From a virus (taxonomy: Duplodnaviria > Heunggongvirae > Uroviricota > Caudoviricetes), in IMG/VR virus record IMGVR_UViG_2537562172_000006: a DNA stretch of 64,000 nt; one strand, 5' to 3'. How positions within the stretch are numbered: the stretch's first letter is position 1; every line of letters starts with the position of its first letter. Position numbers: made by a program. Positions 62,501 through 64,000 of the stretch are shown piece by piece.

Positions 62501-64000
62501 GGTAATAGCGCGGACACTGTGCATAAGATGCCAGCGTCGCACGCAATGCCCCTGGACCGAATGCCAGCCCCCTGACGGCGAGATCCTGCATCAGGTCGTC
62601 GAATATCCCCACCTTAAGCGGCTTCGGTGCTTCCCGGCTGAATAATTCAGGCCACAACTCAGTGAGGCGGTTAATGCGCCTGCGGTTTTTGCGCTGGCGC
62701 TTGGTCATATGCCGCCACGGTGTCGCCCCTGTGGGCTTCTGCTGCGCTTTCTGGTTACCGGGCATCACTTTATGCGCCGACGTGGTTTTATCCTGCTCCT
62801 GTGCCGCCTGCGTCGTTTTCTGCGGCGTGCCATAAATGCCTTTCGGTTTTCTGTTAATGGTCAGCTTAGTCATGCTTTGCCCCATCGTTACAACTGTCTA
62901 CCAACTGTCTACCGATATAATTGATTGATTTATTTAATGTTATTAACTCATAACAAAAAAACAATCTGCAAACTGTCTACTAACTGTCTACCGCATTAAT
63001 ACATTGATAATTAATGATTTTTACTAAATGGTAGACAGTGTAGACAGTTAAAAGAGAAATTTAAAAAATGAACCCTTAACTATCTGTTTTTTTATATACC
63101 CCCCGTGGTTTAGGAATATAGAAATAACTGCCCACCTCTCTACCACATTAAAAATACCTATATAATTCAAAACATTAATTAGTAGATGGTTGGTAGAGGG
63201 TTAAGTGTATCTGTCTACCAACCGTCTACTTTTAAGTTTCAACTTATAAATTTCGTATCATGTTCTGTCGTTAATGCCTGCCGCTGCTGGTAACCATCCA
63301 TCAGCATCTTTATCTAACAGAACATTTGTGATCGTTCGCCCTTTATCTGGACCTTTAGTGCATTTAGCCCGCTTGTACTCCTTTCCGTACTCAGCCATTG
63401 CCCCTGGCATATCTGTACCAAAGCGTGTCAGTGATACCGGTTTTCCCAGACCATGCGCAGACATATAAGCCAAATAAGCATGATACAGATATCGCCTCGG
63501 GCTAAATGGCACTATTTCTGCATTACCTACTATCATCCCCTCACATTTAACCAACGACATCAGATAACCGCAGAAGTCCACCAGCGAATCACCTTCACGC
63601 TTTATTAACAGTGCTTCTTCTGATTTTTGCTGCTCATAAAGTAGTCTTTTCGCTTCGTCCTGGTCGGCAAATCGTGTAAGCAAATGGCGAATCACTACCG
63701 CCAGTTCGCCTTCTATTTTTTCCACCAGCATGGGATCGCGTTCGTTCTCCGGTACGACCTCAGAGAAATTAAATATCACCCTACGACGCGAGATCCCTCC
63801 ACTGCGATCACTGAATGACATGGCGTTATTGTTTACTGCCAGCACTACCGCCGGAATACGTGTGGAGTAGGGGGCTTTATGTTTCGGGTCGATTGCCACC
63901 TTGTCACCGCCTGTAATGGCCTTAATCCCAGCACCATCACCTGCGTAGCGGGTCATGTCAGGCATGATAATCAGAGAATATCCCACCACTAACGCTCGTT

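What the first reader, a model, noticed from the sequence alone, without database searches (positions are those of the whole stretch)
62886..63250. Iteron-type replication origin next to a primase gene
Four tandem pairs of a 10-11 bp iteron (A)ACTGTCTAC(C), one pair inverted, flank an AT-rich stretch of about 150 bp directly upstream of a P4-family-like primase C-terminal fragment. This suggests the second element can replicate autonomously.
Basis: partly seen in the sequence, partly recalled or inferred. Interest (0 to 1): 0.45.

Follow-up and report, generated by a model that had tools for sequence, protein, structure and literature searches.

The report
Replication origin of an E. coli phage satellite
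The repeats are real and are almost certainly the replication origin of a phage-inducible chromosomal island (a phage satellite) in E. coli, but this type of origin has already been described and tested in a related island, so the finding is ordinary.

Summary
CTGTCTAC occurs 7 times in the 64-kb window, always within 62894-63218 (0 of 100 shuffles reach 7). Counting degenerate copies there are 12 iterons in 6 tandem pairs, in a stretch of 23-36% GC.

The "primase" gene is on the minus strand, so the iterons lie 3' of its stop codon (63258) and directly 5' of a ProQ/FinO-like gene.

The element is an E. coli phage-inducible chromosomal island (PICI) of the EcCICFT073 kind. In that island the origin sits in the same place, has the same TCTACC iteron core, and has been shown experimentally to work with its Pri-Rep protein (PMC6092414).

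Three results tie the iterons to the adjacent protein:
- A 1.8-kb cassette, made of primase codons ~129-601 plus the iterons, is swapped as a unit between otherwise 93-98% identical islands.
- In 82 of 85 relatives across Enterobacterales an iteron cluster follows the stop codon, and its sequence class matches the motif in the protein's C-terminal segment without exception.
- That C-terminal domain matches the solved P4 alpha origin-binding domain (1KA8, E 1e-18).

Unlike P4, the island has one iteron cluster rather than ori plus crr. Its initiator shows no Zn-ribbon or Toprim primase domain.

Verdict: a new member of a known kind, of low interest.

The parts
62886..63257 (-). Whole intergenic origin region. 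It runs from the primase (Pri-Rep) stop codon to the ProQ/FinO-like gene, with 23-36% GC and 12 iteron copies in 6 pairs.
62893..62913 (+). Iteron pair 1: ACTGTCTACC at 62893-62902 and 62904-62913, both exact, 11-nt spacing. It is the first half of a 38-nt repeat unit (62892-62929).
62972..62992 (+). Iteron pair 2: ACTGTCTACT and ACTGTCTACC, 11-nt spacing. It is part of the second copy of the 38-nt unit (62971-63008, 84% identical to the first).
63030..63048 (-). Iteron pair 3, inverted: GGTAGACAGT GTAGACAGT, 9-nt spacing.
63049..63126 (.). Longest iteron-free AT-rich gap between the two iteron sets, and a candidate melting site. The 40-mer 63059-63098 is in the 99.8th percentile of instability for the window. 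Other very unstable spacers are 62914-62953, 62995-63034 and 63147-63186.
63127..63144 (+). Iteron pair 4, degenerate: ACTGCCCACC (decayed here, but AACTGTCTACC in L005) and CCTCTCTACC.
63181..63201 (-). Iteron pair 5, inverted and degenerate: ACCATCTACT and ACCCTCTACC on the minus strand. With pair 6 it forms a 17-nt inverted repeat that is 94% complementary.
63210..63230 (+). Iteron pair 6: TCTGTCTACC and ACCGTCTACT, 11-nt spacing, 28 nt from the primase stop codon.
63258..64000 (-). 3' part of the Pri-Rep gene (residues ~356-601 of a 601-aa protein in the closest relative). It covers the end of the SF3 helicase core plus the C-terminal domain. The gene runs off the end of the window.
63288..63593 (-). 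Origin-binding domain of Pri-Rep (residues 491-592), homologous to the solved P4 alpha origin-binding domain 1KA8 (E 1.1e-18).
63339..63353 (-). Codons for GPDKG (residues 571-575), a 5-residue insertion relative to P4 alpha. It lies in the short segment whose sequence class tracks the iteron class across relatives. Inferred to be the wing of the winged helix that sets specificity.
   Evidence: location in the wing is inferred; the AF2 model was unusable
62889..62890 (.). Downstream boundary of the exchangeable replication cassette. Islands carrying other primase alleles are 98% identical to this one up to 62889 and unrelated beyond it. The other boundary is at about codon 129 of the primase, outside the window.
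62343..62885 (-). Neighbouring ProQ/FinO-family gene (PGAP start at 62873), the first gene downstream of the origin. It is not part of the origin but marks its edge. No terminator-like site was found on the minus strand between it and the primase.

Best explanation
The region 62886-63257 is the replication origin of a phage-inducible chromosomal island (PICI, a phage satellite) integrated in an E. coli chromosome.

Proposed mechanism:
1. After helper-phage induction the island expresses its rightward operon, which includes the Pri-Rep protein. This is an SF3 helicase with a C-terminal winged-helix origin-binding domain of the P4 alpha family.
2. That domain binds the 10-bp iterons ACTGTCTACC. 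They are arranged as six pairs spaced about one helical turn apart, in both orientations, on either side of AT-rich DNA.
3. Binding melts the AT-rich DNA and lets the protein load itself as a hexameric helicase.
4. Host enzymes then replicate the excised circle.

Shown here: the repeats; their position; their co-inheritance and co-variation with the C-terminal part of Pri-Rep; and homology to an experimentally validated origin/initiator pair.

Inferred: binding, melting, which AT-rich segment opens, and who primes. The protein has no recognisable primase domain, so priming by the host is assumed.
For: - Repeats far above chance and confined to this intergenic region.
- Same gene order as the characterised PICI EcCICFT073: int, AlpA, Icd-like, DUF4222, primase, [iterons]..., PerC, morphogenesis genes.
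- Pri-Rep is 44% identical to EcCICFT073 Pri-Rep, E 8e-175.
- EcCICFT073's intergenic region 3' of pri-rep carries CT(G/A/C)TCTACC iterons in both orientations. The published deletion primer for pri ends in those iterons.
- PMC6092414 reports that the region immediately 3' of the initiator gene is the origin in Gram-negative PICIs, with two iteron sets flanking an AT-rich region. It also reports that pri-rep plus ori of EcCICFT073 maintains a ts plasmid, while the rep deletion gave no colonies and the ori deletion significantly fewer.
- Cassette evidence: islands L002 and L003 are 93-98% identical to this one on both sides but unrelated from primase codon ~129 to 4 nt before the first iteron. 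Each carries its own iteron, GGGTAGA(G/C) or AACTGTTCAC, at the same place.
- Survey: 82 of 85 relatives have a cluster of at least 4 class-specific words starting 0-94 nt after the stop codon.
- Five C-terminal motif classes map one-to-one onto the iteron classes, with no exception in 83 assignable loci.
- The C-terminal domain matches the P4 origin-binding domain 1KA8, and the helicase core matches SaPI5 PriRep 7OLA.
- There is a single iteron cluster in the complete island L001, and likewise within the sequence held for L002, L003 and EcCICFT073.
Against: - No experiment exists for this sequence.
- The window ends inside the primase gene, so the intactness of the initiator and of int/alpA in this particular genome is not seen. 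It is seen only in relatives that are 100% identical over 1.7 kb.
- A footprint across four orthologous origins about 95% identical was not significant for whole iterons (8/109 against 31/271 variable columns, p 0.27). Only the TCTAC core stands out (0/55 against 39/325, p 0.003), and that test is post hoc.
- The co-variation survey is phylogenetically clumped: 49 loci are Xenorhabdus/Photorhabdus with one iteron class.
- The protein lacks Zn-ribbon and Toprim domains, so 'primase' is a name only and the source of priming is unknown.
- The melting site cannot be assigned among four similarly unstable spacers.
Confidence: 0.85

Rival explanations
1. It is a P4-crr-like auxiliary element. On this reading it is a cis-acting enhancer of replication bound by the alpha-like protein, while initiation occurs at a separate ori elsewhere in the island.
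For: In P4 the cluster directly 3' of alpha is crr, not ori. It has type-1 repeats in tandem pairs in both orientations, the same position and style as here. The window iteron differs from the P4 repeat ACTGTTCACC at only two positions.
Against: The complete island in the closest relative (L001) has no second cluster. There is one lone exact copy at L001 13313, and the loose hits near int are a different word, AGTAGACGTT. L002, L003 and EcCICFT073 also show a single cluster within the sequence held. In EcCICFT073, pri-rep plus the adjacent iteron region alone sufficed for plasmid maintenance.
Confidence: 0.06
2. The repeats are mainly operator sites that control transcription of the downstream ProQ/FinO-PerC-morphogenesis genes, or autoregulate the operon. 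On this reading they are not an origin.
For: The repeats end 19 nt before the annotated ProQ-like start codon, so any promoter for it must lie among them. No terminator-like site was found on the minus strand after the primase. Iteron-binding initiators of plasmids commonly also autoregulate (general knowledge).
Against: The promoter scan found no more sites than chance (2 against 1.8 expected). The repeats co-vary with the initiator's origin-binding domain, not with the downstream genes, which stay 98% identical while the iterons change completely. The homologous region in EcCICFT073 behaves as an origin. A regulatory side-role is not excluded and is compatible with the main explanation.
Confidence: 0.05
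3. The repeats are a packaging (pac/cos) site or integrase arm-type sites, or are chance repeats in AT-rich DNA.
For: Satellites carry packaging sites with repeated motifs. AT-rich intergenic DNA is prone to low-complexity repeats.
Against: Chance is excluded (0 of 100 shuffles). The word is not AT-rich. The integrase gene lies about 6 kb away and has its own different repeats beside it. A separate repeat cluster next to the TerS-like gene (58127-58391) is a better packaging-site candidate. Co-variation with the helicase's DNA-binding domain has no explanation under this reading.
Confidence: 0.02

Closest known systems
Replication origin of Gram-negative PICIs, type example EcCICFT073 pri-rep/ori (Fillol-Salom et al. 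2018, PMC6092414)
   Same: - The position is the same, immediately 3' of the initiator gene.
- There are two sets of short iterons in both orientations around AT-rich DNA.
- The iteron core is the same, TCTACC.
- The initiator is homologous: 44% identity, the same length class of about 600 aa, and the same D5_N/SF3/Pox_D5 domain set.
- The island gene order is the same: int, alpA, Icd-like, DUF4222, pri-rep, ori, PerC, morphogenesis genes.
   Different: - It is a different Pri-Rep allele. The C-terminal segment reads GPDKGRTITN where EcCICFT073 has KGVTQTN.
- The iteron's conserved flank is on the 5' side (ACTG-TCTACC), whereas EcCICFT073 and L002 conserve the 3' side (TCTACC-C/T).
- The layout and spacing of the copies differ.
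- The next gene is ProQ/FinO-like rather than a hypothetical protein plus SSB.
- It is not known whether this allele is one of the four Pri-Rep variants listed in that paper.
Satellite phage P4: alpha protein with ori and crr (GenBank NC_001609 annotation; Ziegelin/Lanka and Calendar laboratories, from own knowledge)
   Same: - The initiator is 44% identical to alpha over the shared ~600 residues.
- The C-terminal domain matches the solved alpha origin-binding domain 1KA8.
- crr lies directly 3' of alpha, as this cluster lies 3' of the primase.
- The iterons are 8-10 bp, in tandem pairs 9-11 bp apart, in both orientations.
- The word ACTGTCTACC differs from P4's ACTGTTCACC at two adjacent bases. 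A sister allele (L003) uses the exact P4 word.
   Different: - P4 needs two separated clusters, ori and crr. Only one is present here.
- crr is built of two 120-bp repeats. Here there is only a 38-nt unit repeated at 79 nt.
- P4 has a terminator between alpha and crr. None was detected here.
- P4 alpha carries Zn-ribbon and Toprim primase domains that this protein lacks.
- The rest of the element is not P4-like: no sid, delta, psu or cI were seen.
SaPI origins (SaPIbov1, SaPI1, SaPI5) with Rep/PriRep self-loading helicases (PMC9371898 and references there)
   Same: - The origin lies immediately downstream of rep.
- It holds 6-12 short iterons, half on each side of a central AT-rich region and pointing in opposite directions.
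- The initiator is an SF3 helicase whose C-terminal winged-helix domain reads the iterons.
- The helicase core matches SaPI5 PriRep 7OLA at E 5e-10.
   Different: - The host is Gram-positive.
- The iterons are penta- or hexanucleotides of unrelated sequence.
- The initiators are only distantly related outside the ATPase core.
- The island's regulatory layout differs: Stl repressor and divergent transcription, against AlpA and unidirectional transcription.
Iteron-controlled plasmid origins (pSC101, R6K, P1, RK2 type)
   Same: Repeated initiator-binding sites lie next to an AT-rich unwinding region and next to the initiator gene.
   Different: - The initiator here is a helicase of the P4 alpha/D5 family, not a RepA-type winged-helix dimer/monomer protein.
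- The iterons are 10 bp in inverted and direct pairs, rather than 17-22 bp direct repeats.
- There is no DnaA box and no GATC in the region.

Membership tests
Gram-negative PICI origin (EcCICFT073 type) | The origin lies immediately 3' of the replication initiator (pri-rep) gene. | tested here: met
   The stop codon is at 63258-63260. The nearest iteron ends at 63230 and the cluster extends to 62893.
Gram-negative PICI origin (EcCICFT073 type) | Two sets of iterons flank an AT-rich region. | tested here: met
   Six copies lie at 62893-63048 and six at 63127-63230, around a 78-bp gap. GC is 23-36%.
Gram-negative PICI origin (EcCICFT073 type) | The adjacent initiator is a homologue of PICI Pri-Rep. 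| tested here: met
   44% identity over 596 residues to EcCICFT073 Pri-Rep, E 8e-175, with the same Pfam domain set.
Gram-negative PICI origin (EcCICFT073 type) | Island context: integrase, AlpA regulator, unidirectional transcription, no phage lysis or full structural module, about 10-15 kb. | tested here: met
   This is met in the closest relative L001, which is 100% identical over 1.7 kb and 98.4% over 3.7 kb. There int lies next to tRNA-Gly, AlpA (PF05930) is present, and all island genes are on one strand. In the window itself only the 3' half of the island is visible, all on the minus strand.
Gram-negative PICI origin (EcCICFT073 type) | The region supports replication together with its cognate Pri-Rep. 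| not testable with these tools
   This has been shown only for EcCICFT073 (PMC6092414).
P4 ori/crr system | The initiator has the P4 alpha C-terminal origin-binding domain. | tested here: met
   Residues 491-592 match 1KA8, E 1.1e-18.
P4 ori/crr system | Type-1 repeat TGTTCACC. | tested here: not met
   The window word is ACTGTCTACC, with no TGTTCAC in the region. The sister allele L003 does use AACTGTTCAC.
P4 ori/crr system | Bipartite arrangement: a separate ori and crr about 4.5 kb apart, both with iterons. | tested here: not met
   There is one cluster in the complete relative L001, and one within the sequence held for L002, L003 and EcCICFT073. P4 shows two under the same scan.
P4 ori/crr system | The initiator carries an active primase domain (Zn ribbon plus Toprim). 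| tested here: not met
   Pfam finds both in P4 alpha and neither in the 601-aa island protein at E <= 0.01. The alignment shows the EGYATAL and DRD segments deleted (the alignment is tentative in this region).
SaPI-type origin | 6-12 iterons downstream of rep, at least two on each side of a central AT-rich region in opposite orientations, read by a winged-helix C-terminal domain of an SF3 helicase. | tested here: met
   There are 12 copies, with both orientations on both sides. The helicase core matches 7OLA and the C-terminal domain matches a winged-helix structure. The definition is taken from PMC9371898. The resemblance is in organisation; sequence relatedness is limited to the ATPase core.
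Iteron plasmid origin (RepA type) | A RepA-family initiator, 17-22 bp direct iterons and DnaA box(es). | tested here: not met
   The initiator is of the D5_N/SF3 type. The repeats are 10 bp in mixed orientation. There is no DnaA box within one mismatch.

The most novel reading that the evidence does not exclude
The most novel reading not excluded concerns how origin specificity is set in the whole P4-alpha/PICI Pri-Rep family. On this reading a segment of about 10 residues after the last helix of the C-terminal winged-helix domain sets it. Here that segment carries a GPDKG insertion. The segment and its iterons would travel together as a ~1.8-kb cassette that recombines between otherwise near-identical islands. 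That would give at least five mutually orthogonal replicon specificities (xTCTACC, TGTTCAC, TCTCCAC, TGTCCRC and sub-types). It would also make P4 crr the homologue of the single PICI origin, so that P4 and enterobacterial PICIs share one replicon ancestry rather than having evolved independently.
Probability: 0.5. Interest if true: 0.4.

Novelty: new member of a known kind. Interest (0 to 1): 0.2.

Why it matters
It matters little as a discovery. The origin type, its position and its mode of action are published for a homologous E. coli island.

It is useful in two smaller ways:
- Annotation. RefSeq records carry no origin feature at this position, and the gene is named "DNA primase" although no primase domain is detectable.
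- An experimental lead. The one-to-one match between a short C-terminal motif and the iteron word, together with the sharply bounded exchangeable cassette, is a ready-made natural experiment on initiator specificity. It could guide the design of mutually compatible satellite-based vectors.

Tried and rejected
- Phylogenetic footprint across four orthologous origins (window, L005, L087, L088, about 95% identical). Whole iterons are not significantly more conserved than spacers (p 0.27). Only the TCTAC core is invariant, and that test is post hoc.
- AlphaFold2 on the C-terminal 124 residues without an alignment gave pLDDT 37, which is unusable. The location of the GPDKG insertion in the wing therefore remains an inference.
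- The promoter and terminator scan found nothing above chance on the minus strand.
- Rfam at a permissive threshold found nothing in the origin. The four hits, all below their gathering scores, lie at 61983-62098, just 3' of and overlapping the end of PerC.
- The strong RNA-fold z-score of the region (-5.2) is simply the inverted iterons and was not taken as evidence for an RNA.
- A second iteron cluster was sought in the complete island. Four loose hits near int/tRNA-Gly turned out to be a different word, AGTAGACGTT, probably integrase arm sites.
- No DnaA boxes, GATC sites or 13-mers were found. There are two IHF-consensus matches (62918, 62997), which are weak evidence only.
- The phage collection holds no close relative. 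There is only one 'induced prophage' record, with a 77% identical primase.
- The classical P4 replication papers are not in the searchable library. P4 facts rest on the GenBank annotation and my own knowledge.
- I could not determine which of the four published Pri-Rep alleles, if any, this one is.

Full report
**1. Observation**

The 8-mer CTGTCTAC occurs seven times in the 64-kb window, and every copy lies between 62894 and 63218. Dinucleotide-preserving shuffles give a mean of 0.92 and never reach seven.

Allowing mismatches while keeping the TCTAC core gives eleven 10-mers related to ACTGTCTACC in the region. A twelfth copy (63127, ACTGCCCACC) is decayed here but intact in the Escherichia ruysiae orthologue.

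The copies form six tandem pairs, 8-11 nt apart start to start:
- 62893/62904 (+)
- 62972/62983 (+)
- 63030/63039 (-)
- 63127/63135 (+)
- 63181/63192 (-)
- 63210/63221 (+)

The whole region has 23-36% GC, between genes of 50-64%. It contains four of the least stable 40-mers of the window.

**2. Orientation and neighbours**

The primase-like ORF is on the minus strand (63258 to beyond 64000). The repeats are therefore on its 3' side, beginning 28 nt after the stop codon.

On the other side they end 19 nt before the annotated start of a minus-strand ProQ/FinO-family gene. After that come a PerC-family regulator, a DUF2213 protease-like protein and a TerS-like HTH protein.

**3. What the element is**

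The window is E. coli. The 1.7 kb around the finding is 100% identical to strain ETEC4077, and 742 of 5426 complete genomes carry related sequence.

In ETEC4077 the complete island reads: integrase next to tRNA-Gly, hypothetical, AlpA (PF05930), AntA-like antirepressor, Icd-like, hypothetical, DUF4222, a 601-aa "DNA primase family protein", the repeats, ProQ-like, PerC, morphogenesis-like genes. All are on one strand.

This is the gene order of EcCICFT073, the characterised PICI, which I retrieved from CFT073.

Fillol-Salom et al. 2018 define Gram-negative PICIs by exactly these features. [quoted passage not shown] They also report that pri-rep plus ori of EcCICFT073 maintains a temperature-sensitive plasmid, while the rep deletion gave no colonies and the ori deletion significantly fewer (PMC6092414).

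The EcCICFT073 intergenic region carries CT(G/A/C)TCTACC repeats in both orientations. This is the same TCTACC core as here. The published pri deletion primer ends in those repeats. The two initiators are 44% identical.

**4. Do the repeats belong to the adjacent protein?**

Three independent lines say yes.

*(a) Cassette boundaries.*
- Islands in strains JNU and 08-00022 match the window at 98% up to position 62889, four bases before the first iteron, and then stop.
- A direct comparison shows 93-98% identity again from primase codon ~129 upstream.
- The unrelated 1.8 kb in between is exactly the helicase plus C-terminal part of the primase plus the repeats.
- Each of those islands has its own repeat at the same place: GGGTAGA(G/C) ten times, and AACTGTTCAC seven times.
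- No other gene co-varies with the repeats.

*(b) Survey.*
- Among 80 relatives from 185,579 species genomes, plus the five reference loci, 82 of 85 have a cluster of at least four class-specific words. It starts 0-94 nt after the stop codon and ends within about 410 nt of it.
- The words fall into four classes: xTCTACC, T(G/A)TTCAC, TCTCCAC and TGTCC(A/G)C.
- Each class goes with its own motif or motifs in a short segment near the C-terminus, five motifs in all. No motif is ever paired with more than one class, with no exception in 83 assignable loci:
  - GPDKGRxxxN and KG(R/V)xQTN go with xTCTACC.
  - KxG(I/M/L)(R/Q)(S/T/Y)N goes with T(G/A)TTCAC.
  - KGN(M/I)RSN goes with TCTCCAC.
  - G(R/N)(I/Y)QSN goes with TGTCC(A/G)C.
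- Proteins that are nearly identical through the rest of the C-terminal domain differ in just this segment when their iterons differ.
- The survey is phylogenetically clumped, so it is not a formal statistical test. The pattern across near-identical backgrounds is still hard to explain otherwise.

*(c) Structure-level homology.* Residues 491-592 match the solved origin-binding domain of P4 alpha (1KA8, E 1e-18). The ATPase core matches SaPI5 PriRep (7OLA, E 5e-10).

**5. Mechanism**

By homology with P4 alpha and with the SaPI Rep proteins (PMC9371898), the most likely sequence of events is as follows:
1. The C-terminal winged-helix domain binds the iteron pairs on both sides of the AT-rich DNA.
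2. The DNA melts.
3. The SF3 helicase loads itself, probably as two hexamers.
4. Host polymerase copies the excised island.

Which spacer melts cannot be decided. The central gap and three inter-pair spacers are all extremely unstable.

The protein has D5_N, SF3 helicase and Pox_D5-type C-terminal domains. It has no Zn-ribbon or Toprim domain, although the same search finds both in P4 alpha. Priming is therefore presumably done by the host. This is an inference.

No terminator-like site separates the primase from the ProQ-like gene, and there is no room for a promoter outside the repeats. The downstream genes are therefore probably transcribed through the origin. This is also an inference.

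**6. Comparison with P4**

The P4 GenBank record places crr directly 3' of alpha. It has type-1 repeats in tandem pairs in both orientations. A second cluster, ori, lies 4.5 kb away.

The window word ACTGTCTACC differs from the P4 word ACTGTTCACC at two adjacent bases. The 08-00022 allele uses the P4 word itself.

The cluster is thus positionally and probably evolutionarily the counterpart of crr, but membership of the P4 system fails on three tested features:
- a single cluster rather than two;
- a different repeat word;
- no primase domain.

It is best filed as a PICI origin that works like the P4 and SaPI origins.

**7. Rivals**

- A crr-like enhancer that needs another ori is unlikely. No second cluster exists, and the EcCICFT073 minimal replicon works.
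- A purely transcriptional operator is unlikely. The repeats follow the initiator allele, not the conserved downstream genes. A side-role in regulation is not excluded.
- Packaging or integrase sites do not fit, and chance is excluded.

**8. What led nowhere**

The footprint test, the single-sequence AlphaFold model, the promoter/terminator scan, the Rfam search and the RNA fold gave nothing usable. Details are in the "tried and rejected" field.

**9. Verdict**

The feature is an unannotated but typical member of a published class, so interest is low.

The sharply bounded initiator-plus-iteron cassette and the motif-to-iteron correspondence are the only parts that go beyond what I found described in the papers I read. 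They are leads for experiment rather than surprises.

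Noticed in passing
window 58127-58391: A second, unrelated repeat cluster lies in the same island. 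There are six exact copies of TTGACACTTT, five on the + strand and one on the -, and these are the only exact copies in the window. They are embedded in a longer unit, ACTTGACACTTTTCG(C/G)GAA. The cluster lies just 3' (in minus-strand sense) of the TerS-like/HTH ORF 58410-58934. It is a candidate packaging site or HTH-protein binding site of the island.
   Followed up: partly
L001 9959-11764 (full-length homologue of the window gene 63258->64000): The protein annotated 'DNA primase family protein' has no detectable Zn-ribbon or Toprim domain, whereas P4 alpha does. Its first ~128 codons are about 93-95% identical in DNA between alleles whose remaining 470 codons have diverged beyond nucleotide recognition. 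In the alignment the catalytic EGYATAL and DRD segments of P4 alpha are deleted.
   Followed up: partly
window 56476-57681 (-): A 401-aa STAND/AAA NTPase (Pfam nSTAND1; weak PADLOC PDC-S59 hit) sits at the variable far end of the island. PGAP names its relatives 'orc1/cdc6 family replication initiation protein'. A related island carries SieB at this spot instead. It is possibly an anti-phage cargo gene, and the replication-initiator name is probably misleading.
   Followed up: partly
L087 (strain 98193) and L088 (strain J2), relative to window 62869-62877 and 63289-63291: In other E. coli genomes insertion sequences sit at the two edges of this origin. IS1 lies at the ProQ-like start, with the 9-bp segment 62869-62877 present on both sides. 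IS3 lies ten codons before the primase stop. At least 5 of the 25 best hits carry such an insertion. The iteron array itself is left intact in both.
   Followed up: yes
L005-L084 and P4, first ~300 nt after the primase stop: Two different layouts of iteron orientation recur among relatives. One (>> < >>(>) << > <<) is shared by loci with different iteron words (L009, L011, L014, L017, L022, L035). The other (<< >> < gap >> << <<) is seen in this island, while L002 shares its first half and central gap but ends differently. Layout is thus conserved independently of the word.
   Followed up: no
window 62892-62929 and 62971-63008: Iteron pairs 1 and 2 are each the head of a 38-nt repeat unit (84% identical, 79 nt apart). 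The tail of each unit contains an IHF-consensus match (62918 and 62997, minus strand). This is loosely reminiscent of the 120-bp repeats of P4 crr.
   Followed up: no
L001 16924-16933 and 16988-16997: Two copies of AGTAGACGTT lie 64 nt apart between the integrase gene and tRNA-Gly in the complete relative of the island. They are probably integrase arm-type sites. They partly resemble the iteron (GTAGAC) but are a different word.
   Followed up: partly
window 43430-55639: The 'first element' next to the island looks like the end of the Rac prophage: RecE-like exonuclease VIII at 43430-46576, RecT at 46588-47640 and an integrase at 48396-49631. It is followed by chromosomal genes, named here from their Pfam domains and my knowledge of the Rac-adjacent E. 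coli gene order: a PP-loop ttcA-like gene, a DEAD-box helicase (dbpA-like), a CorA-like transporter, a GGDEF/PAS cyclase and an Smr-domain protein. The island in this window is therefore at a different chromosomal site from its 100%-identical replication module in ETEC4077, which lies at tRNA-Gly.
   Followed up: no
window 61983-62098 (-): Several sub-threshold Rfam hits pile up here, running from the last ~40 nt of the PerC gene into the AT-rich stretch just 3' of it. The best is 32 bits against a gathering score of 60. This is most likely a terminator-like hairpin, and none of the hits is credible as a family member.
   Followed up: no
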